From: a virus
Taxonomy: Duplodnaviria; Caudoviricetes
Length of the DNA: 52,547 bases
IMG/VR virus record: IMGVR_UViG_3300021405_000017
Location: 1-52,547 of that record
Direction: 5' to 3' (one strand)
In this document: positions 11,772 to 45,983 of the stretch, in pieces
Layout: each line of letters begins with the position of its first letter
Numbering within the stretch: position 1 is the first letter of the stretch
Position numbers and translations under genes: made by a program
The notes under the pieces: generated by a model
What the model saw: the letters and a program-made list of their open reading frames with translations, nothing else
Database searches by the model: none
Told to the model about the DNA's origin: nothing

Positions 11772-11974
11772 GTTTTCTAAACCGTTTTCTAAACCGCCCC
11801 GACGGTTTAAAATAAACCGCCCTAAGTTATTGAAAAGATTGGCTGGGGGACCTGGATTCGAACCAAGATTGACGGAGTCAGAGGCCGTTGTTCTTCCTTG
11901 ATTTTATTGGGAAAGGTTTTTTAAACCGCGATTTTTGGCCCTAAAGAGATCAATGGGTTGCGCTCGGTTTAGAA
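11772..11974. mobile_element. attP: core = 3' half of tRNA-Gln(CTG) (11840-11884, minus strand) with arm-type repeats
   Basis: Minus strand CTCTGAC-TCCGT-CAATCTTGGTTCGAATCCAGGTCCCCCAGCCA gives anticodon loop CTG, T-arm and CCA end. TAAACCG-containing repeats at 11772, 11784, 11803(rc), 11917 and 11965(rc); adjacent to the integrase. Confidence 0.9.
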
Positions 11975-13070
11975 TACGATTTTCGCCCGCCTCGTAGACT
12001 TCAAATTTAGCCATCGCTGCGCGCGCGACGCTCAGGTCAAGGTTCACATAACCAGCGAGCGAAGAGCGCTTTGTGCCGCTCTCCAAACCATGCCCGGTAA
12101 TGCTGGCGATCTCGATCGTGGTGCAGCCGGCGCGTCCCATGCGTGACGCGGCGGTCCCTCGTAGATCATGGAACGTGACGCCGCCTTTCCGGCTGCTTGG
12201 CACGCCCGCCTTGATACAGGTCTTACGCCACATGACCCGAAAGCCATCCGGCGTCCACGGCTCGCCGCTCTGGTTGACCAGCATGAGCTCATCTTTGCGG
12301 GGTGTCGCGTCGAGGATCGCCCTCAGCGGCGCCGCCACCGGGACGACGATATCGACGTCGGTCTTGCCTTGAGTCAGCGCGATCACGTCGCCGTCGTATG
12401 CGGTCCATGGCAGCCGGAGGAGATCGCCTTGTCGCTGCAAGGTCCAGAATGCGAGGGCCATCGCCAGCGACAATTCCGGCGAGGCGGCTGCCCTGAACGC
12501 CGCCATTTGGCCCTCGGTCCAGACCTTGTGTTTCCGACTCGTGCTGTAGAGTTTCTCGACGCCCGAGCGAGCGCAAGGATTGAACTCGATCTCGCCCCGC
12601 GTCGTCGCGAAATTCAAAACGATATTCAGGACGACCCAGGCATAGTCGGCCTGCCGGTCTGATTTCTTAGCGAGCTGATCGCGCCAGCGGAGGAAAATCC
12701 CTCGCGCCCGATTCTTGACCCCCAGGGCGATGATCGGCATCTGGCGATGTTCGGTGGGAACGGCGGCCAGGAGCTTGCGATAGTCGCGCTGTGTCCGCTC
12801 TTTCCGCTTCCGAAATTCGGGGCTGTCGAGATAAAGGTCAATCAGCCATTCGAGCGTCTTGCCGGCGGTCGCGCGCGGCTCGTTGGAGTTGGCGATCGGA
12901 CCCGCCGCCTTGATTGCCAGCGCCTCCGCCAGCGCGCGCCTGAACTCAGGCGAGCCTTCCGGCCCAGGTAGCTTCGGGCCGCCCTGCCACGCGTAGAGGT
13001 AGAGAACGGTCGTTCCATCGGCGAGTTTTTTGGGGACGCGGTGAATCCCCCCTTTACTTGGACGTCCCAT
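11904..13070 (-). CDS. int: Tyrosine recombinase (phage integrase)
   Basis: Catalytic R (LQRQGD), K (QGKT), HDLR, GH and Y (AGYV); next to attP. Confidence 0.95.
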   Translation of the reverse strand: MGRPSKGGIHRVPKKLADGTTVLYLYAWQGGPKLPGPEGSPEFRRALAEALAIKAAGPIANSNEPRATAGKTLEWLIDLYLDSPEFRKRKERTQRDYRKLLAAVPTEHRQMPIIALGVKNRARGIFLRWRDQLAKKSDRQADYAWVVLNIVLNFATTRGEIEFNPCARSGVEKLYSTSRKHKVWTEGQMAAFRAAASPELSLAMALAFWTLQRQGDLLRLPWTAYDGDVIALTQGKTDVDIVVPVAAPLRAILDATPRKDELMLVNQSGEPWTPDGFRVMWRKTCIKAGVPSSRKGGVTFHDLRGTAASRMGRAGCTTIEIASITGHGLESGTKRSSLAGYVNLDLSVARAAMAKFEVYEAGENRILNRAQPIDLFRAKNRGLKNLSQ

Positions 13071-13266
13071 AATATTTCGCTTCCCAATCCGCTAAGGCCC
13101 GCTCGGCGCTGGCTGCCGGCGTTGTCTGGATGCTCACTTCGCCGCTCACGATTGTGATCTTGCCGGCGCTGTCGATTTCGCAGCGCGTGACATGGAGCCC
13201 GGCCGCCTTGGCCGCGCGGAGCGCGCGAGTGACGTCGCTTTGACGGAAGGATGACGGACGTTTCAC
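13054..13266 (-). CDS. Putative excisionase/recombination directionality factor
   Basis: RPSSFRQSDVTRALRAAKAAG...EIDSAGKI; small basic protein overlapping the int start. Confidence 0.6.
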   Translation of the reverse strand: MKRPSSFRQSDVTRALRAAKAAGLHVTRCEIDSAGKITIVSGEVSIQTTPAASAERALADWEAKYYGTSK

Positions 13267-13481
13267 CGTCGCTCGCCCTTCCCCGTCGCGGAATCGGCCC
13301 TTTCGCTTATGGCGGGAAGCCCCGCCGGGCGACGCGCCCCCGGGCGCGGTGTCTCACACTTCGCCCGAGCGGTCCGCGAAGACAAGAGGGCGCCGCGCAC
13401 AATTTGCGCTCCGTCCACGGGAATAGGCGCGGCCTGGTCCGATTCAATTCTCATCACCACGCCGCGCCTCCTTCCGTCTCA

Positions 13482-13977
13482 GCCGGCCCAGCCCCGCCTC
13501 GCCTTGCCAGATCAAGCCTAGTCACACCGCGCCTGGTCCAGCCTCGCCGGCCCCGCAAGCCGCGCCATGCCAGGCCACGCCTTGCCTCGCCAGGCCTCAC
13601 CATTCCGGCCGCGCCGAGCCCGGCCTTGCCTAGCCACGCCACGCCGCGCCAGACCCCGCCGCGCCGGCCTTGCCTTGCCTCGCCGGGCCTAGTCGCGCCC
13701 GGCCGCACCGAGCCTGGCCGAGCCCGGCCGTGCCGCGCCCCGCCGAGCCCTGCCTGCCTCGCCCCACCTCGCCAGGTCCAGCCTTGCCAGGCCTTGCCCC
13801 ACGCCGCACCTGCCTTGCCCTGCCTCGCCAAGTCGCGCCCGGCCTCGCCGGACCCAGCCCAGCCTGGCCACGCCTGCCTTGCCACGCCCAGCCTCACCGG
13901 GGCCGGCCGCGCCTTGTCTAGCCTAGCCATGCCTGGTCCGGCCGCGCCGTGCCGCGCCTGCCTTGCCTCGCCTCGTC
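13482..13977 (-). ncRNA. GGY-NN pentamer array 1 (about 7 putative guide units)
   Basis: Strict 5-nt periodicity (plus strand RCCNN, minus strand GGYNN) with 4-nt steps at 13482, 13546, 13604, 13663, 13752, 13808, 13872 and 13956. Intergenic, starting at the upstream gene's stop codon. RNA status inferred. Confidence 0.8.
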
Positions 13978-14280
13978 TCATACGGGCGAATCGAGCCGTT
14001 TGAACTCGCCTCGCCGTAGCTCGATGGCCGGGACACTCCGGATCTCGCTGCGCCGCGCCTTGATGACGAATTCGCGCCATTCTCGCCGCTGCTCCCGCTC
14101 TAAGCCGCGTACTAGGTCAGCCTGATATTTCTCCGACAACGCGCGCTTCACCCAAGCGTCGAACGGCAGCCGAGCCGCAGCTGCCGCCTCCTCGAACGCC
14201 TGCATGATCGGCGAGGCAAGGCGAATGTGGAGCGTCTTGCCGCCCACCTCGTCGTCATTGTCATTGATGGGTTCGTTCAT
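13978..14280 (-). CDS. Small hypothetical protein (possible RHH/HicB-like DNA-binding) between arrays 1 and 2
   Basis: AAGGAG RBS; TLHIRL...AAAAARLPFDAWVKRAL. Confidence 0.6.
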   Translation of the reverse strand: MNEPINDNDDEVGGKTLHIRLASPIMQAFEEAAAAARLPFDAWVKRALSEKYQADLVRGLEREQRREWREFVIKARRSEIRSVPAIELRRGEFKRLDSPV

Positions 14281-14301
14281 GACCCTCTCCTTTTCACTTT
14301 T

Positions 14302-15777
14302 GCCCGCCTTGCCTGCCTTGCCTTGCCGAGCCTTGTCGGACCCAGCCGGGACACGCCAAGCCTCGCCATGCAACGTCCCGCCGCGCCTGCCTTGCCATGT
14401 CGGGCCTAGCCGGGTCGGATCTTGCCGAACCCCGCCAAGCCTCGCCTCGCCCGGCCCGGTCAAGCCACGCCTGCCTTTGCCTTGCCATGCCTGGCCTTGC
14501 CCAGCCGCACCGTGCCGAACCCGGTCGGACCCGGCCAAGCCTGCCATGCCAGACCTCGCCTCGCCGCGCCTTGCCAAGCCTCGCCAAACCCGGCCATGTC
14601 GCATCCGGCCGCGCCTGCCTCGCCCCGCCTTGCCTCGCCGCGCCCTGCCCAGCCCGGCCAGGCCGAATCGTACCGGGTCTAGTCATGCCCCGCCGGCCTC
14701 GCCTTGCCCCGCCAGGCCCAGTCTCGGCTCGTCCTGCCTCGCCTAGTCCCGCCCAGTCGCGCCCGACCATGTCAGGCCGTGCCCGGTCCCGTCTTGCCGT
14801 GCCGCGCCTTGCCAGGCCTGCCTCGCCATGCCTCGCCAAGTCGCGCCTTGCCTCACCGCGTCTGGCCCGGCCTTGCCGCGCCAGGTCTCGCCGTGTCGCG
14901 CCTGCCTTGCCTTGCCTTGCCCGGCCCCGCCTCGCCGGGTCCCGCCATGCCTGCCTCGCCTCACCCCATCGTGCCGGGCCAAGGCGTGTCCCGACATGCC
15001 TCGGCATGCCAGGCCCGGCCCGGCCGGACCTCGCCTGCCTAGCCTCGCCCGGTCGCGCCGAGTCGAGCCTAGCCTCGCCGCGCCCCGCCGTACCGTGCCC
15101 GGCCGGGTCATGCCTGCCTCGCCCCGCCGCGCCAGCGCCATGCCAAGCCTTGCCGAGTCGCGCCTGGTCGTGCCTGGCCCGGCCAGGCCCAGCCTGGCCA
15201 TGCCTGCGTTGCCTTGCCTCATCAGGTCAGGCCATGCCTCGCCTCGCCCAGCCTCGCCTCGCCTCGCCTGTCTGGCCATGCTTCGCCTCGTCACATCATG
15301 CCGCGCCGGATCAAGCCTCGCCCGGTCCCGCCGTGCCGTGCCTGACCCCGCCTCATCAGGTCTGGCCATGCCTGCCTCGCCTCGCTGCGCCGGGGCTCGC
15401 CCGGCCAAGCCGGGTCGAGTCCCGCCTGGCCCCGCCTAGCCTGCCTTGCCGTGTCAGGCCTCGTCACGCCTCGCCGTGTCCGGCCCAGCCTAGTCTGGCC
15501 ATGCCTGCCGTGTCCGGCCCAAACCAAGCCTCGCCTTGCCGCGCCTTGCCTCGCCACGCCTGCCTTGCCCGGCCAGGCCAAGCCTTGTCACGTCGCACTG
15601 CATCCCGCCTCGCCTGCCTTGCCTGGCCTCGCCAGGTCTCGCCGCCCTTGTCCTGCCCAGCCTCGCCTGCCTTGTCAGGCCACGCCTAGCCGGACCGGGC
15701 CGGGCCTAGCCTTGCCTCGCCGCATCTGGCCCGGCTCTGTCATGCCAAGCCTGGCCTTGCCTGCCTTGCCGTGTCAG
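14302..15777 (-). ncRNA. GGY-NN pentamer array 2 (about 19 putative guide units)
   Basis: About 1.47 kb of pentamers. GGCAGGC-type junctions at 14311, 14385, 14469, 14539, 14613, 14692, 14816, 14900, 14949, 15033, 15112, 15202, 15266, 15370, 15439, 15503, 15558, 15612, 15665 and 15759. Confidence 0.8.
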
Positions 15778-16316
15778 GCGGCGGTTCGTGAGCCGCCGCC
15801 CTTGCCTTTGCCGCCTTTGCCGCCGCCGGCCTTGCCCGCACCTTTGCTCGCAGCCTTGGCGGCGCGGGCTCGTTCGGCGATGGTTTCGAGGTTGAGCAAC
15901 ATGGTGTCCAAGTCTGGACCGACGCCCAGGACGAGGGCGACCTTTCGCGCCCGCTCTATAGCGGCGGCGATGCGGTCAACCTCGTCCTCGAGGACTCGCA
16001 GCGCCCGCGCGCGCTGACCTTTGAACGAGGTCAATTCGCAAGAGGTCTGCGTTTTCGGCGCTCGATCGGGATCGACAATGTAGTAGGGCACTACGATGGT
16101 TTCGGTCTCCGTGATGACCTCAAACCGGACGTAACGGATCAGGGTGCGGGCCTGCTCGATCCAATGCTGTTGCGCCGCCTTTTTTACGTCCCATTCGAAG
16201 TCTTCATGGATTGGAGAGCCGGGAGGCCGAGCCGCTTCGACCACCTTCTCAGGCTCAAGACGCCCGCTGGAGTCTTCCAGCGAGCGAATAAAGGCGGCCT
16301 TGGCCGCCGACATCAT
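15774..16316 (-). CDS. Partner protein of the RAMP-like gene (function unknown)
   Basis: LEPEKVVEAARPPGSPIHEDFEWD..AAQQHWIEQARTLIR motif; ATGA-coupled to the RAMP-like gene; array 2 begins at its stop codon. Confidence 0.75.
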   Translation of the reverse strand: MMSAAKAAFIRSLEDSSGRLEPEKVVEAARPPGSPIHEDFEWDVKKAAQQHWIEQARTLIRYVRFEVITETETIVVPYYIVDPDRAPKTQTSCELTSFKGQRARALRVLEDEVDRIAAAIERARKVALVLGVGPDLDTMLLNLETIAERARAAKAASKGAGKAGGGKGGKGKGGGSRTAA

Positions 16317-17197
16317 TGCGACAGCCCCACCTCGTCGCCGCCGCCATTGCTCTTAGGCGGGCGCTTGCCGTTTGCGGCTTTCGGCGTCTTGCCCTTTGAC
16401 GCCTTGCCGCCCTCGCGCTGAGAGCTAGCCTCGCGCCGGATGATCTCGCTCTCGTACCACACCCACAATTCTTCGCTGTCGATATCGCTCGCCTCCGGGT
16501 TATCGTAGGCCGCCTGTTGCACCTTACGGCCGCCGTTCTTGACGATATCGAGCCAGCGCGGGTCACGCGCATCGACGACCTCCCAGCCGCCGTTGTTGAA
16601 GGTGCCCTTCTCTGTTCGCCCGTCGCCGATGCCGGTCACATCGCCGGCGTTCGACATCAAGTTGACGATCGCCCGCTCGGTCGTCAGCGTCTTGATGAAT
16701 TGGACGGTGAGTTTCACCGCCCATGTTTTGAACATCGCGCGGGTTCGAATGTCGGGCACGCGCTTCATGCCCTCAAGGCGGACCCAATCCATGTAGAGGT
16801 AGGGCTTGCCATAGACGTGGACCGTCTGGTCGACCACCTGCACCAGACAGCCGATCTCAGTCTTCGTTGCACCTGGCGTGCGGAGCGCCGCGGAACCGAG
16901 CGCCTTTTTGAAAGCGCCGGTAGGGAAGTGAAAAAGCGTAGGCGCGCTATCGTCGCGGCACCGATACATTGTGTCGCGGAATTCAGCGAGCGGGTCATGT
17001 TTCAAAATGACCTGCTTCTCGGCGTTGTTTTTAGCGCGCGACGGAAGCAACAGCTGCTGCTTCGCTTTCGCGCTCGGCCGATTCATCACCAGGGGCGCCG
17101 TGCCCAGAAGATGGAAGACAACGTAGCCTCGCTCGAAGCGCTTAAGCTCCGAGACCATCTCGGTGGTGTCGCGTGTTTTACTGGGTTTGGTAGCCAT
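16313..17197 (-). CDS. Stand-alone RAMP/Cas7(Csm3)-like RNA-binding protein (Vipr-like)
   Basis: N-terminal LLGTAPLVM (cf. RAMP TxSPLxIG), FHFPTGAFKKAL (cf. YIPGSSLKGAL) and C-terminal Gly-rich loop GIGDGRTEKGTFNNGGWEV. Flanked by pentamer arrays; AGGAGG RBS. Confidence 0.75.
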   Translation of the reverse strand: MATKPSKTRDTTEMVSELKRFERGYVVFHLLGTAPLVMNRPSAKAKQQLLLPSRAKNNAEKQVILKHDPLAEFRDTMYRCRDDSAPTLFHFPTGAFKKALGSAALRTPGATKTEIGCLVQVVDQTVHVYGKPYLYMDWVRLEGMKRVPDIRTRAMFKTWAVKLTVQFIKTLTTERAIVNLMSNAGDVTGIGDGRTEKGTFNNGGWEVVDARDPRWLDIVKNGGRKVQQAAYDNPEASDIDSEELWVWYESEIIRREASSQREGGKASKGKTPKAANGKRPPKSNGGGDEVGLSQ

Positions 17198-17252
17198 TCT
17201 CGTCTATGCTCCTCCTTTCGGAAAACGGCCTATCCGCTTTCCGTCGTCGCTT

Positions 17253-17279
17253 GGCCCGGGCGTCGTGAGCGCCCGGGCC
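17253..17279 (-). other. 10-bp perfect hairpin at the 3' end of array 3
   Basis: GGCCCGGGCG-7 nt-CGCCCGGGCC. Confidence 0.7.
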
Positions 17280-17299
17280 TTGCGTTTCGTTCGCGCTCA

Positions 17300-17939
17300 G
17301 CCTGCCGGCCGAGCCTTGCTTTGCCTCGCCATGCCGGGCCGTGCCACGCCGGGCCTGACCAGACCCAGCCCTGCCGAGCTGCGCCACGCCAAGTCGCGCC
17401 TGCCTCGCCCAGCCGGGCCGTGTCGGGCCTAGCCGCACCTCGCCCGGCCTCGCCAGGTCCGGCCGCGCCAAGCCTTGCCTGCGTCGCCGCGCCGTATCGC
17501 GCCGGACCGGGCCACGCCCCGCCAAGCCTCGGCCAGACAAGCCTCGCCAGGCCGCGCCTGCCTTGCCTCGCCATGCTGAGCCCAACCCCGCCAAGCCCCG
17601 CCGCGCCAGGTTCAGCCAGGTCCGGCCTCGCCTGCCTCGCCTTGCTCCGCCCCACCTCGCCGTGCCCCGTCACGCGTTGCCCGGTCGCGCCCAGCCGTGC
17701 CCCGTCTCGTCTAGCCATGCCTGCCTTGCCCCGCCGAGCCGGGTCTGGCCTTGCCCCGCCAAACCGCGCCACGCCAAGCCTGGCCTGACCCCGCCTGCGT
17801 CGCCTTGCCTCGCCTCGCCCGGCCAAGCCGCGCCCGGCCTCGCCATGTCGGGCTCAGCCCGGCCAGGCCTCGCCGGTCATGCCGCCCCTTATCGAGCCCA
17901 ACCCCGCCATGTCTGGCCAAACCGCGCCTGCCTTGCCTC
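17300..17939 (-). ncRNA. GGY-NN pentamer array 3 (about 8 putative guide units)
   Basis: Junctions at 17300, 17398, 17477, 17556, 17630, 17719, 17793, 17872 and 17926; spacings mostly 5n+4 (54-98 nt). Confidence 0.8.
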
Positions 17940-18966
17940 AAAGGAGGTTCTCCTCTGATTTGGCCGCAGAGGAGCGGCGAGGCGGTTCACCACCGTCCTC
18001 TGCGGCCGCATCCGGCGCGGGTGGTTGTGGCCCGGCGGGAGGGGGATTCTCCGCCGTTTGAGCCGCGCCGGAATCTAAGTTCGGGGATAGGTCAGTAGCG
18101 CCGGCTGCCCCGGCGAGCGCGTTCAGCTTCGAGGACAGGCCTTTCAGGGCAGGGCCTCGGTCGGCTTTCGGTTCTGGAAACAGCGTCTCGACTGTCGACT
18201 CGCCAGACTTGATCGCCTGCCGCATCGCGGTCAGCGTAATCAGATCGTCGAGGCCGACGTCCTCGATCCCCGGAACCTCAAGCGCGTTGAAGACGCGCTC
18301 GGGGGTAACGCCCCAGGCCGCGAAAGACCTGACCGCTACGTCCCGGCGCTCAGAGAGCGTCTTGACGTCGCCGGCGATCACCCGCTCGACCGACTGATAG
18401 GCTCGCCGCCAGATCGCCTTGGGCACGCCGCGCATGATCGCGTTGCGAAGCGCGATCGAACACGCGGCCTGGCCGGTCACCATGATTAAATCGTCGTCGT
18501 AAATCCGGCCATGCTTGTCGAAGATACGCCGGCGCACCCGTGACGTGGTGACGCGGCCCGTCTCCAAATCGTGGAAGACGCCCTCGGCCTCGACGAACTT
18601 TTCAATCCGATCGATGTGGATGACGCGGGAGGCGTCGCGGCAATTGCCCCATTGCGAGGCGACGATCTCGGCGAAACGTATGGACGGACCGCGAATCGCC
18701 TTTTTGCCGCGAGGCAGCGCATAGACGCATTCTTCCGCGGTCTCGTCGTCGAGCGTCGCCAGGCCCAGGATGTCGCTCATCACCTTCTTTTGCGATCGTG
18801 GATAGGCGTGCGCGGTATTGACCTGCTGATCGACCTCGGCGCGGCTGAGCGCGATCGCCAGGCTCATTTGGCTTTGCGCCGGACCGGCGTCGATCGTCGC
18901 CAGCGGGCCGAAGTCGTCCGTCTGTTCGAGATCCGTTTCGACGGGCTTAGCCATTGGCTTTTTCAT
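17938..18966 (-). CDS. Putative single-strand annealing/recombination protein
   Basis: DQQVNTAHAYPRS...YALPRG...GPSIRFAE..ASQWGN; adjacent to the YqaJ exonuclease. Function inferred from context. Confidence 0.6.
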   Translation of the reverse strand: MKKPMAKPVETDLEQTDDFGPLATIDAGPAQSQMSLAIALSRAEVDQQVNTAHAYPRSQKKVMSDILGLATLDDETAEECVYALPRGKKAIRGPSIRFAEIVASQWGNCRDASRVIHIDRIEKFVEAEGVFHDLETGRVTTSRVRRRIFDKHGRIYDDDLIMVTGQAACSIALRNAIMRGVPKAIWRRAYQSVERVIAGDVKTLSERRDVAVRSFAAWGVTPERVFNALEVPGIEDVGLDDLITLTAMRQAIKSGESTVETLFPEPKADRGPALKGLSSKLNALAGAAGATDLSPNLDSGAAQTAENPPPAGPQPPAPDAAAEDGGEPPRRSSAAKSEENLL

Positions 18967-28421: not shown

Positions 28422-28658
28422 ATGGCGGACGGCCCTGTTGCACGTGAAACGACGCTCGCCGACGCGCTTGACGTCGTACGGCTGGACGAGCTCGCCCGCA
28501 CGGCGGAGCTGGCGGCGTCCTACTGGCACAGTGTCGCCCTGGCCGCCGATCGCGGCGACGTTCACACCCTCATCCTCCATTGTCACCAGCTCGCCCAGGT
28601 CACCCGCGAGGCCTTCGCCCTGGCGCGCGCGCTCGGCTCGTCGGAGGCCGAGCGATGA
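28422..28658 (+). CDS. Hypothetical protein
   Basis: Coupled to the next ORF. Confidence 0.5.
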   Translation: MADGPVARETTLADALDVVRLDELARTAELAASYWHSVALAADRGDVHTLILHCHQLAQVTREAFALARALGSSEAER

Positions 28659-28867
28659 CCGAGCCAGACCAGGAACGGCCGAGCGTGGCCGAGGAGCGCG
28701 AGCGACTCTTCCGCGCCTATCCGGAGGAGTACAACGACGGCGCCCGACGCGGCTATACCGGCAACAAGCGCTATCCGCGCGGCTTCCACGATTGGCCGCT
28801 CGAGCGACGGAACGCATGGTTCGCCGGCTGGAATGTCGGCTACTGCGACCGTATGGCGGGGCGCTGA
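28655..28867 (+). CDS. Hypothetical protein (RMF-like Y..G...GY...W..GW pattern)
   Basis: EYNDGARRGY...RNAWFAGWNVG. Confidence 0.5.
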   Translation: MTEPDQERPSVAEERERLFRAYPEEYNDGARRGYTGNKRYPRGFHDWPLERRNAWFAGWNVGYCDRMAGR

Positions 28868-30300
28868 TGCCAGAGCGACCGCCCTATTTCACCGAGGCTC
28901 AATGGCAGGAGCACCTCCGCCGGACAGGACAGGCGCCGGCCGGCGAGGAGCAGAAGCCGCCGCCGCCCGACAACGGCCAGCCTCCGGGCGGCTTCAATGA
29001 GAGGGTGGTCCAATTCGACCAGGCTCGAAAGCGCAAGCCCAAGCCGCCGCCGACGCCGCCGCCGGGCGGCTGGCCCGAATGGGTGGGACGTCTACGGCGC
29101 GACGATCGCGGCCGAGTCATCCCCGACCTCGCCAACGTCCTGATCGCCCTGCGCGGCGAGGACAAGCTCGCCGAGGCCTGCGGCTTCGACGAGATGCTAC
29201 AGCACTCGATGGTGTTGAAGGAATGGCCGCGCCTGCCCGACGCCAAGCCGATCAAGCCGCCGCCGCACGAGACCGATGATGATGACATTAGCCGGATCCA
29301 GGAGTGGTTGCAGCGCATGGGCCTGCCCCGGATCGGGCGCGAGATCGTCGGCCAGGCGGTCGAGGTCTTCGCCCGCGAGCGCAGCTTTCACCCGGTGCGC
29401 GATTGGCTCAACGGCCTCAGCTGGGACGGCGTACGCCGAATCGACCGCTGGCTGTTCGTCTATTTCGGCGCGGAAGCCGAGGATGATGACGCGATTGAAT
29501 ACGTCAGCGCGATCGGCAAGATGTTCCTCATCGCCATGGTGGCGCGGGTGTTTCGACCCGGCTGCCAAGCCGATTACATGCTCGTGCTCGAGGGCGACCA
29601 GGGCATCCTCAAATCAAGCGCCTGCCGCGCGCTCGCCGGCCAATGGTTCTCGGACAGCTTGCCGGATGACATTCAGGGCAAGGACGCCCGCCAGCACTTG
29701 CGCGGCAAATGGCTGATTGAAGTCTCCGAGCTTGCCGCCTTTTCCAAGGCCGAGACCGAGGCGCTGAAAGCCTTCATCACCCGGCGCGAGGAACGCTACC
29801 GTCCGCCCTTCGGCCGGCATGACGTGGTCGAAAAGCGGCAATGCCTGTTCATCGGCACCACCAACGAGGAGAGCTACATCAAGGACCAGACCGGCGGGCG
29901 CCGCTATTGGCCGGTCAAATGCCTGTCGATCGACGTCGAGGGCCTCGCCGGCGTCCGCGACCAGTTATTCGCCGAGGCCTTGATCCGGTTCCGCATGGGT
30001 GACCGCTGGTGGCCGACCGCCGCGGACGAGGCCAGGTTCTTCAAGCCGCAACAGGAGAGACGGGAGGAAGATGATCCGTGGGTTCCGCCCGTGGCGACCT
30101 GGCAGCAGGGCTTCCCATCGGACAAGGTGACGGTGTCGCAAGTTGCCCGCGAATGTTTGGGGTTTGACGGCAATTCCCGCATTGACCCGCGAGTACAGCA
30201 GCGGATCGCTAAGATACTCAAGAGGTTAGGTTGGGCGCAACTGCCGAGGACGATGCACGGCCGCTTTTACGCCCGGCCGCGAGGCGACGACGACGCATGA
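28867..30300 (+). CDS. VirE/VapE-family SF3 helicase (replication)
   Basis: FHPVRDWL, Walker A LEGDQGILKSS, Walker B LIEVSEL, FIGTTN, DQTGGRRYWPV. Confidence 0.9.
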   Translation: MPERPPYFTEAQWQEHLRRTGQAPAGEEQKPPPPDNGQPPGGFNERVVQFDQARKRKPKPPPTPPPGGWPEWVGRLRRDDRGRVIPDLANVLIALRGEDKLAEACGFDEMLQHSMVLKEWPRLPDAKPIKPPPHETDDDDISRIQEWLQRMGLPRIGREIVGQAVEVFARERSFHPVRDWLNGLSWDGVRRIDRWLFVYFGAEAEDDDAIEYVSAIGKMFLIAMVARVFRPGCQADYMLVLEGDQGILKSSACRALAGQWFSDSLPDDIQGKDARQHLRGKWLIEVSELAAFSKAETEALKAFITRREERYRPPFGRHDVVEKRQCLFIGTTNEESYIKDQTGGRRYWPVKCLSIDVEGLAGVRDQLFAEALIRFRMGDRWWPTAADEARFFKPQQERREEDDPWVPPVATWQQGFPSDKVTVSQVARECLGFDGNSRIDPRVQQRIAKILKRLGWAQLPRTMHGRFYARPRGDDDA

Positions 30301-43191: not shown

Positions 43192-43451
43192 CAGCCGATC
43201 CCCATTCTCCGCCGGCCCCTAGCCTAGCCGGCGTTCGCAAGGCCGAAATCGACGTCGGTCCTGAGTTCTTCCGGGCGACTCTCCAGACTGTGACGCCGCC
43301 CAACACGCTGACGATGGCGGCCTCGACCGGCGCCGCGAAGATCGTCATCCATCTCGACACTGGCGAGGTTGACCTTCTCGGGCTTGAGCCAAGCGAGGGC
43401 GCCCGGCTCTTTTGGAAGATCGTCGAGGAGCAATTCGGGAAACGAGGATGA
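43188..43451 (+). CDS. Hypothetical protein
   Basis: ATGA-coupled on both sides. Confidence 0.55.
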   Translation: MTADPHSPPAPSLAGVRKAEIDVGPEFFRATLQTVTPPNTLTMAASTGAAKIVIHLDTGEVDLLGLEPSEGARLFWKIVEEQFGKRG

Positions 43452-43948
43452 GAAAAGGCCCGGCGCCGCTTCCGACCCATCTCAAGCTGTTGCGCGGCAA
43501 CCCGGGGCAGCGGGCGCTCAGCAAGGGCGAGCCGATGCCGATGCAGCCGCCCGACCCGCCCGACCCGCCGGGCGATCTGACCGGCTACGCCAGGGAGGAA
43601 TGGAACCGGATCATCGTCGAGGTCTTTCGGCTTCGGCTGGTGACCAGCATCGATATCCAGGTCCTGGCCGCCTATTGCGACGCCTACGCCCGCTGGCGCA
43701 ACGCGCGTGAGACCTTAGCCGCGATGGCCGAGCGCGATCCCATAACCCGCGGCCAGATCGTCAAGACCCAATCCGGTGGGGCCGCGCCTAATCCGTTGGT
43801 GTTCATGGCCGCCGCCGCAGCCCGAGACATGGTCCGCTTTGCCGCTGAGTTTGGATTATCCCCCGCCGCCCGTACCCGCATTAACGCGATTGACGCCATC
43901 GGCGGCACGCCGAGCAAGTTCGCGGGGCTCCTCGCCGGAGTTGATTAG
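43448..43948 (+). CDS. terS: Terminase small subunit, P27 family
   Basis: P.PTHLKLLRGNPG.R, LAAYC..Y, NP.V, EFGLSPAAR. Confidence 0.9.
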   Translation: MRKGPAPLPTHLKLLRGNPGQRALSKGEPMPMQPPDPPDPPGDLTGYAREEWNRIIVEVFRLRLVTSIDIQVLAAYCDAYARWRNARETLAAMAERDPITRGQIVKTQSGGAAPNPLVFMAAAAARDMVRFAAEFGLSPAARTRINAIDAIGGTPSKFAGLLAGVD

Positions 43949-45866: not shown

Positions 45867-45983
45867 GGCGGCGGCCCGCGCTAAACGGACCGCCGCCCCT
45901 TGCCTTGCCCAGCCCTGCCGCGCCTGGCCCCACCGGACCGGGCCGAGCCGTGCCTTACCACGCAACGCCAAGCTTGCTTGGCG
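45867..45983 (-). ncRNA. Solo GGY-NN unit (array 5) with its own promoter and 3' hairpin
   Basis: 14 pentamers at 45902-45971. Upstream TTGAGC-N18-TAGGTT (46020-45991); downstream hairpin 45867-45897. Confidence 0.75.

What the first reader, a model, noticed from the sequence alone, without database searches (positions are those of the whole stretch)
13672..13751. Guide unit decodes to a P27 terminase small subunit: LSGYARAEWERVAPEL
Plus-strand NN tt tc gg ta gc cg gc ga tg ga cg gt gc cc ga ct aligns to this phage's terS at 43577-43624 (LTGYAREEWNRIIVEV) at 21/32. The decoded version looks closer to the family consensus (W.RV.PEL) than the resident allele. This suggests it targets a relative's packaging gene. 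The guide is antisense to the coding strand.
Basis: partly seen in the sequence, partly recalled or inferred. Interest (0 to 1): 0.85.

Follow-up and report, generated by a model that had tools for sequence, protein, structure and literature searches.

The report
Phage VIPR guide aimed at terminase
This stretch is one guide in a phage-borne VIPR system, a recently described RNA-guided DNA-silencing system that reads two of every five bases, and the guide spells a conserved site in the small terminase gene of rival phages rather than the phage's own copy.

Summary
At 13672-13751 the + strand is 16 GCC+NN pentamers with exactly the listed dinucleotides, and they match the resident terS at 43577-43623 at 21/32.

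That DNA match alone is noise, because other window sites reach 20/32. As codon positions 1-2, however, the unit reads [FL][FL]SGYARA[DE]W[DE]RVAP[DE]L. This fits the P27/Terminase_4 consensus FLxGYARxEWxRVAxEL at 13 of 13 defined positions and gives z=6.7 in a six-frame scan of the window.

In 157 terS loci from other genomes and viral contigs, 97 match the 17-NN guide better than the resident allele. The best reach 28/34, against a maximum of 25 in 200 shuffled guides. No perfect target was found.

The context is a VIPR locus as described in 2026 bioRxiv preprints. It has a RAMP protein (Foldseek: Csm3/Cas7; profile hit to the PDB chain named SUSP1 Vipr), a conserved partner gene, and about 2.8 kb of staggered GGY-NN arrays.

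This is a new member of a known kind. Expression, RNA processing and binding are untested.

The parts
13667..13755 (-). The guide unit: 17 GGY-NN pentamers on the minus strand, between two 4-nt phase steps. On the + strand the NN read TT TT TC GG TA GC CG GC GA TG GA CG GT GC CC GA CT, which decodes to [FL][FL]SGYARA[DE]W[DE]RVAP[DE]L.
   Evidence: Viterbi phase parse; NN extraction; decoding.
13672..13751 (-). The finding's own coordinates: 16 of the 17 pentamers.
13461..13980 (-). Array A of GGY-NN pentamers (9 phase blocks). It contains the guide unit and lies downstream of a 101-aa gene in the minus-strand operon.
   Evidence: Lag-5 autocorrelation 0.5-0.63 against about 0.28 at other lags; 72 of 92 G[CT]C spacings are 5 nt and 7 are 4 nt; parse.
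14290..15790 (-). Array B, the largest (25 phase blocks, about 1.5 kb), directly downstream of the vap-like gene.
17240..17945 (-). Array C (12 phase blocks), directly upstream of the vipr-like gene.
45890..45975 (-). Solo unit D (17 pentamers) in the late region.
16313..17197 (-). vipr-like gene: a 294-aa RAMP protein.
   Evidence: AF2 model from a 50-sequence alignment, pLDDT 85.2. Foldseek against PDB gave 34 hits at E<=1e-3; the rows listed are Csm3, type VII complex chains, Cmr6 and gRAMP. The family profile hits PDB 36pp_D 'SUSP1 Vipr protein' at E=1e-6 over the GvGD.R loop. 40 of 80 IMG/VR relatives carry >=100 nt of GGYNN runs on the gene's strand, against 1 of 80 on the other strand.
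15774..16316 (-). vap-like partner gene, 180 aa, no Pfam family (phrog_15946, unknown function).
   Evidence: A homologue lies just downstream of vipr on the same strand in 73 of 80 relatives' loci, median gap 42 nt.
43448..43948 (+). Resident small terminase gene (Terminase_4 / P27 family). The homologous, poorly matched site is 43574-43624.

Best explanation
The unit at 13667-13755 is one guide of a phage-encoded VIPR system. The minus strand is probably transcribed with the early-left operon (inferred). The RNA would be cut or used in units bounded by 4-nt GGCA/GGCC steps, a 'staggered' array (inferred from sequence and a preprint figure legend). Protomers of the 294-aa RAMP protein would bind each GGY and present the two following bases (mechanism taken from the preprints, not tested here). 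The 16-17 presented dinucleotides pair with codon positions 1-2 of the sense strand of a P27-family small terminase gene, skipping each wobble base. The site encodes the conserved FLxGYARxEWxRVAxEL motif at the start of the Terminase_4 domain. The guide fits terS alleles of other temperate phages of soil Alphaproteobacteria far better than the phage's own allele. It most likely silences the packaging gene of competing phages while sparing its carrier.
For: Shown here: (1) NNGCC pentamers with conserved GCC and variable NN, 49 perfect GGYNN x>=4 runs (1510 nt) on the vipr strand against 1 run on the other strand. (2) The array ORFs lack the codon-position GC pattern of real genes, about 0.75/0.73/0.75 against about 0.65/0.45/0.8. 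(3) The 294-aa protein has a RAMP fold and a profile hit to SUSP1 Vipr. (4) vipr, the 180-aa gene and staggered GGYNN arrays are conserved in IMG/VR relatives. (5) The decoded peptide fits the terS consensus at 13/13 defined positions. The best homologue fits 14/17, and 0 of 300 shuffles exceed 9. (6) An unanchored scan of 157 terS loci gave a best of 28/34; all 25 top hits were in frame at the homologous site on the gene strand, and 0 of 200 shuffled guides exceeded 25. The same result held in a 237-locus set, with a shuffle maximum of 23 in 12. (7) L278 reaches 29/34, and L137, L080, L162 and L278 are all Terminase_4. (8) The self match of 21/34 (62%) is below the preprints' 80% criterion. 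(9) Guides with resident-gene similarity occur in both orientations, 1 forward and 3 reverse-complement at z>=3, which fits DNA rather than mRNA targeting. From the preprints: the 1-nt skip rule, wobble alignment, targeting of competing phages, and staggered arrays with 1-nt overlap.
Against: No perfect or near-perfect target was found. There were 0 exact matches in IMG/VR for the 16-NN pattern or either 12-NN half, and 0 of 401 genomes of the order of a Bradyrhizobium genome matched 15 NN with <=3 mismatches. The preprint says most top matches of its guides were perfect. The 29/34 hit came from a scan that already required 18 of the 34 bases. In that scan an unrelated cellular ORF (L252, which reads like a 6-phosphogluconate dehydrogenase; not tested) reached 27/34. 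There is no expression or processing evidence. This array type has no 3' tail or pseudoknot like the tested SUSP1 vrRNAs, and the preprint text says only the ribozyme-array and single-vrRNA architectures were confirmed by sRNA-seq. 29 of the 33 units showed no above-noise match in the sets I scanned. Whether 16, 17 or 18 pentamers are used is unknown.
Confidence: 0.8

Rival explanations
1. The guide acts on the phage's own terS, as autoregulation of late or packaging genes through partial pairing, for example to hold packaging off during lysogeny.
For: The resident terS site is the best-scoring site in the window for the 16-NN guide (21/32), and it is in frame at the homologous position.
Against: 21/34 (62%) equals the background: two unrelated sites tie it and several score 20. 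The preprints report no self hit at >=80% and loss of silencing when NN pairing is perturbed. 97 of 157 foreign terS loci match better.
Confidence: 0.05
2. The resemblance to terS is a chance product of GC-rich dinucleotides decoded into common residues (A, R, G, E).
For: The nucleotide match to the resident allele is at noise level. Anchored scans find non-terS ORFs at 27/34.
Against: Shuffling the same 17 dinucleotides gives at most 9/17 peptide fits in 300 trials against 14/17 observed. It gives at most 25/34 in 200 trials against 28/34 observed. All 25 top hits fall on the same in-frame terS site. z=6.7 in the window scan.
Confidence: 0.02
3. The unit is a decayed or orphaned guide. It once matched a terS allele but is no longer processed or loaded, or its target lineage is gone.
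For: No target above 85% was found. Its 3' boundary step is GGCC rather than the usual GGCA. One pentamer has GAC and one GGT in place of GGC.
Against: 15 of 17 GGY triplets are canonical and phase is unbroken over 89 nt.
Confidence: 0.1
4. The RNA targets terS mRNA as an antisense rather than DNA.
For: This guide is complementary to the sense strand, so it could pair with the mRNA.
Against: Other units resemble genes in the opposite orientation: 3 of the 4 hits at z>=3 and the L293 hit. The preprints show dsDNA binding and targets on both strands.
Confidence: 0.03

Closest known systems
VIPR (Viral Interference Programmable Repeat) systems, with type II SUSP1 and P. fulva as the tested examples (bioRxiv 10.64898/2026.04.26.720920, 10.64898/2026.04.26.720927, 10.64898/2026.10.15.759431)
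   Same: A phage-borne two-gene module of a small RAMP and an accessory gene. GGY/NN pentamer RNA arrays lie on the same strand. NN decode under a 1-nt skip with the skip at the wobble position. The inferred target is a gene of other phages, and there is no self match at >=80%. The protein family's profile hits the SUSP1 Vipr chain in the PDB.
   Different: The protein is 294 aa, against about 20 kDa (202-aa chain) for SUSP1. There is no invariant 3' tail or pseudoknot. Guides abut each other and are separated only by 4-nt steps. There are 33 units of >=40 nt in about 2.8 kb, against four vrRNAs in SUSP1. The target class here is a small terminase, which is not mentioned in the text of the first preprint (0 occurrences) and appears in the third only as a prophage hallmark. 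The host range is soil Alphaproteobacteria-like.
Staggered vrRNA arrays (fig. S18 legend of 10.64898/2026.04.26.720920; legend read, figure not held)
   Same: Adjacent vrRNAs overlap by 1 nt, so that one ends where the next begins. This corresponds to the 4-nt GGCA|GGC steps seen here and in relatives.
   Different: The main text does not list this architecture among those confirmed by sRNA-seq.
Class 1 CRISPR Cas7/Csm3 backbone filaments
   Same: RAMP fold: the top Foldseek hits are Csm3 chains of Csm complexes. A thumb periodically interrupts guide-target pairing (from the preprint).
   Different: There are no CRISPR repeats or spacers. The period is 5 nt on the guide and 3 nt on the target, instead of 6/6. 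No cas genes appeared among the ten neighbouring proteins scanned.
Phage-borne mini-CRISPR arrays used against related phages (recalled from the literature, not looked up here)
   Same: A virus carries guides against conserved genes of its relatives while sparing itself.
   Different: A different guide architecture, and it depends on host Cas proteins.

Membership tests
VIPR system | A Vipr protein: a small stand-alone RAMP (RRM core, G-rich loop, thumb) related to SUSP1 Vipr | tested here: met
   AF2 pLDDT 85.2. 34 PDB hits at E<=1e-3; the listed rows are Csm3, type VII complex chains, Cmr6 and gRAMP. The profile of 50 homologues hits 36pp_D 'SUSP1 Vipr protein' at E=1e-6 across the conserved aG..GvGD.R..G loop. 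The thumb was not inspected separately.
VIPR system | Tandem GGY/NN (YNNGG) pentamer repeats, >=4 units, flanking vipr on its strand, with conserved GGY and hypervariable NN | tested here: met
   1510 nt of perfect runs on the vipr strand against 20 nt on the other. The same holds in 40 of 80 relatives, against 1 of 80 on the opposite strand.
VIPR system | An adjacent accessory (vap) gene | tested here: met
   The 180-aa gene overlaps the vipr stop. A homologue lies just downstream in 73 of 80 relatives. Its function is unknown, with no Pfam family, so which of vap1-6 it is cannot be said.
VIPR system | NN decode under the 1-nt skip rule to a target in another mobile element at >=80% NN match, with the skip at the wobble | tested here: met
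   28/34 in L137, L080 and L162, and 29/34 in L278. All are in frame in Terminase_4 genes. The shuffle maximum was 25/34. No perfect match was found.
VIPR system | No self target at >=80% NN | tested here: met
   For this guide the best self match is 21/34. Among all 33 units only a 9-NN unit reaches 16/18, which equals its shuffle maximum.
VIPR system | vrRNA is expressed, processed and bound by Vipr, and the complex binds dsDNA | not testable with these tools
   No RNA run was listed for this DNA. The phage comes from a soil metagenome.
VIPR type II (SUSP1-like) | An invariant structured 3' tail (pseudoknot) after each repeat tract | tested here: not met
   Units abut with only a 4-nt step. 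There were no Rfam hits. So this is not type II-like; it fits the 'staggered array' architecture instead.
Terminase_4 / P27-family small terminase (the target) | A match to Pfam PF05119 above the gathering score | tested here: met
   Resident gene E=2.8e-24. L278, L137, L080 and L162 give E from 1e-21 to 7e-26. The guide site lies at the first residues of the domain.

The most novel reading that the evidence does not exclude
The guide is not tuned to one rival phage. It is tuned to the amino-acid consensus of a whole terS clade, fitting 13/13 consensus positions with no exact DNA match anywhere searched. If this RAMP filament tolerates about 15% NN mismatches, one guide would then act as a broad-spectrum block on packaging by many related temperate phages. 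In the same reading, the tail-less 'staggered' arrays are punctuated only by a semi-constant GGC-RA-GGCA step, which would serve as the processing or assembly signal in place of a structured handle.
Probability: 0.25. Interest if true: 0.6.

Novelty: new member of a known kind. Interest (0 to 1): 0.45.

Why it matters
The unit gives an independent example of the VIPR non-contiguous code outside the enterobacterial and Pseudomonas systems tested so far. It comes from a GC-rich soil phage and uses the tail-less staggered array form, which the first preprint's main text does not list among the forms confirmed by sRNA-seq. It adds a conserved packaging gene (small terminase) to the inferred target classes. 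It also offers a clean assay pair: the decoded consensus site against the resident 62% site. The locus holds 33 candidate guides, so it could help establish how mismatch-tolerant the code is and how such arrays are processed.

Tried and rejected
My reading before the literature search was that the pentamers were a protein-binding DNA scaffold (centromere-like, near the RHH-like gene), a G-rich structured RNA, or coding repeats. I rejected coding because the codon-position GC is flat and there are phase steps. I rejected a link to the RHH-like gene because that gene is absent from 80 of 80 relatives' loci.

A single-sequence AF2 model was useless (pLDDT 30.9). An alignment-based model replaced it.

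Exact-pattern scans of IMG/VR for the 16-NN guide and both 12-NN halves found nothing. Shorter patterns found 5 and 8 loci with a best of 28/34. None of the 8 loci from the 5'-half pattern reached 24/34.

A third protein search, restricted to a region of P0144, returned only the query.

The genome search found 0 of 5 and 0 of 401 genomes matching 15 NN with <=3 mismatches.

Rfam gave 0 matches. The scan of 13000-18300 gave 0 promoter-like sites and 5 terminator-like sites, against 3.6+/-2.0 in shuffles.

No RNA holder was listed for 13300-17300; two soil-metagenome DNA runs were listed, one of them possibly the source.

The protein atlas gave only unnamed viral clusters.

I could not assign the VIPR type (I-VII) or check whether this clade is in the authors' tables, because supplements are closed.

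Full report
WHAT IS THERE. The window is a complete 52.5-kb virus record of 65% GC. In its minus-strand early operon the order is: integrase 11904-13070, two small ORFs, array A, a 101-aa gene, array B, a 180-aa gene, a 294-aa gene, array C, a phrog_3657 gene and a YqaJ/RecE-like exonuclease. Three long tracts lie in this operon (13461-13980, 14290-15790, 17240-17945), and one short tract lies at 45890-45975. All are built of + strand NNGCC pentamers, which read GGYNN on the minus strand.

Autocorrelation at lag 5 is 0.5-0.65, against about 0.28 at other lags. Most G[CT]C spacings are 5 nt, with a minority of 4 nt. ORFs across the tracts have flat codon-position GC and are not genes. A Viterbi phase parse cuts the tracts into blocks separated mostly by 4-nt steps (+ strand 'GCC t GCC tY GCC', RNA strand 'GGC RA GGC A GGC'). 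33 blocks are 40 nt or longer.

THE OBSERVATION. The phase block runs 13667-13755 and has 17 pentamers, with one more 'tt' at the start. The resident terS (43448-43948, Pfam Terminase_4 E=2.8e-24, phrog_83) encodes DLTGYAREEWNRIIVEV at 43574-43624.

Under NNx spacing the 16 NN match 43577-43623 at 21/32. That is the best site in the window, but three other sites reach 20/32. For 17 NN, two unrelated sites tie terS at 21/34. So the DNA match to the resident allele is not significant by itself.

I then scored each of the 33 units, in both orientations, as degenerate peptides against the six-frame translation of the window with arrays masked. In that scan the terS hit is the strongest of 66 tests: score 51 against a shuffle maximum of 41 in 60 shuffles, z=6.7.

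WHAT THE UNIT SPELLS. As codon positions 1-2 the 17 NN give [FL][FL]SGYARA[DE]W[DE]RVAP[DE]L. An alignment of 40 terS proteins has the consensus FLxGYARxEWxRVAxEL at this place. The decoded string fits all 13 defined positions.

Among the 120 listed terS homologues (of 230 found), the best fit 14/17 (P0144, P0205). The resident fits 9/17, and 71 of 120 exceed the resident. In 300 shuffles of the dinucleotide order the best fit never exceeded 9/17.

The resident's RIIVEV is shared by its nearest clade (RIIxEL in P0113, P0118, P0123, P0130). The guide therefore addresses a different terS clade. The resident allele need not be an escape mutant.

DNA-LEVEL TARGETS. I fetched 77 terS loci from species-representative genomes, among them Bradyrhizobium species, Rhodobacteraceae and many MAGs. 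I also fetched 80 from IMG/VR, the best 80 of at least 553 relatives.

An unanchored scan of all 157 loci (356 kb, both strands) gave a best of 28/34 (82%) in L137 and L080. All 25 top hits were on the gene strand, in frame and at the homologous site. 200 shuffled guides reached at most 25/34. 97 of 157 loci beat the resident's 21/34, and 2 of 157 reach 80% or more.

Pattern scans of IMG/VR added L162 at 28/34. It gave L278 at 29/34, or 29/32 for the 16 NN. L278, L137, L080 and L162 are all Terminase_4 genes.

Against this: no exact match exists in IMG/VR for the 16-NN or either 12-NN pattern. None of 401 genomes of the order of a Bradyrhizobium genome matched 15 NN with 3 or fewer mismatches. 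In the anchored scan an unrelated cellular ORF reached 27/34. The anchored 29/34 is therefore weaker evidence than the unanchored 28/34.

THE SYSTEM AROUND IT. The 294-aa protein has 87 homologues, nearly all metagenomic and unnamed. With a 50-sequence alignment AlphaFold2 gives pLDDT 85.2. Foldseek against the PDB gives 34 hits at E<=1e-3, and the listed rows are Csm3 chains of Csm complexes, type VII complex chains, Cmr6 and gRAMP. A profile of the family hits one PDB sequence below E=1e-3: 36pp_D, deposited as 'SUSP1 Vipr protein' (E=1e-6), aligned over a conserved aG..GvGD.R..G loop.

IMG/VR holds 464 relatives. In the best 80 loci, 40 carry at least 100 nt of perfect GGYNN runs on the gene's strand, against 1 on the opposite strand. 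Three arrays I read use the same GGCA steps. A homologue of the 180-aa gene follows vipr on the same strand in 73 of 80 loci, with a median gap of 42 nt. The 101-aa gene, the phrog_3657 gene and the two small ORFs are in 0 of 80.

COMPARISON WITH WHAT IS KNOWN. A full-text search for 'pentanucleotide repeat' and 'prophage' found bioRxiv 10.64898/2026.04.26.720920. I read its Results, Discussion, four Methods sections and figure legends. It describes VIPR systems as follows:
- They consist of a stand-alone RAMP (Vipr), an accessory vap gene and vrRNAs of 9-16 GGY/NN repeats.
- The NN pair with dsDNA, skipping every third base, usually the codon wobble.
- Natural targets are called at 80% or more NN match and lie in competing phages and satellites.
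- No self hit reaches 80%.
- Seven types exist, including 'staggered arrays' in which adjacent vrRNAs overlap by 1 nt.

A companion structural preprint (10.64898/2026.04.26.720927; abstract and one section read) shows that the thumb displaces GGY on the guide and one base on the target. A third preprint (10.64898/2026.10.15.759431; abstract, one Methods section and passages read) uses the same identity score, shuffled-guide nulls and 0.8 threshold.

The locus here meets each sequence-testable criterion. It differs from the tested type II systems in three ways: a longer protein, no 3' tail, and abutting guides. 'Terminase' does not occur in the first preprint's text. In the third it occurs only as a prophage hallmark.

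MECHANISM, WITH STATUS. Shown: the array anatomy, the RAMP fold and Vipr homology, the conserved gene-array linkage, the decoding to terS, a better fit to foreign alleles than to self, and in-frame wobble skipping. Inferred from the preprints: filament assembly on GGY, NN presentation, dsDNA binding and transcriptional silencing. Inferred from sequence only: transcription from the minus strand with the early operon, unit boundaries at the 4-nt steps, and use of 16-18 pentamers. Untested: expression, processing, binding and any effect on a rival phage.

VERDICT. The thing is a new member of a recently described kind (VIPR, staggered-array form), with a new inferred target class. I set interest at 0.45. 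It is a useful independent instance and a testable guide-target pair, but no longer categorically new. The first-stage notes on this window proposed the same system-level reading; I tested their claims here rather than relying on them.

Noticed in passing
window 15270-15373; L293 2715-2773: This 20-NN unit, read as reverse complement, fits an AAA-ATPase-like ORF (337 aa, Walker A motif) about 2.3 kb upstream of vipr in the closest IMG/VR relative. It scores 30/40 NN, against a shuffle maximum of 26 in 12 shuffles. The window has no homologue of that site. This is a second candidate guide-target pair, on the opposite strand sense to the terS guide.
   Followed up: partly
window 13556-13603 and 15669-15762, against 29125-29151 and 29767-29820: Two units resemble the resident 620-aa gene at 28438-30300 (z=3.6 and 3.0 at peptide level; 16/18 and 24/36 NN). 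The 9-NN unit's 16/18 (89%) self match equals its shuffle maximum, so it is not clearly self-targeting.
   Followed up: partly
phage records H1-H25: Relatives of the RAMP protein at about 30% identity sit in 27 Mycobacterium, 5 Gordonia and 1 cyanophage records, and those listed are annotated as hypothetical proteins. I did not inspect their flanks for GGYNN arrays.
   Followed up: no
window 13978-14283 (-): A 101-aa gene with no family hit sits between arrays A and B. It is absent from 80 of 80 relatives' vipr loci, so it looks like an insertion into the array region rather than part of the system.
   Followed up: partly
L297 5840-6310: A relative's array contains long internal duplications of several consecutive units. 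This suggests arrays grow by block duplication followed by NN change.
   Followed up: no
window 17253-17279 and 15777-15800: GC-rich hairpins sit exactly at the junctions between array C and vipr and between vap and array B. Terminator-like sites are not enriched overall (5 against 3.6+/-2.0 in shuffles).
   Followed up: no
window arrays, unit boundaries: On the RNA strand nearly every unit ends with GGC-(A/G)A-GGC-A. The last NN is therefore semi-constant (+ strand TT/TC). It may be a boundary signal rather than guide, or it may bias targets towards sites that begin with TY.
   Followed up: partly
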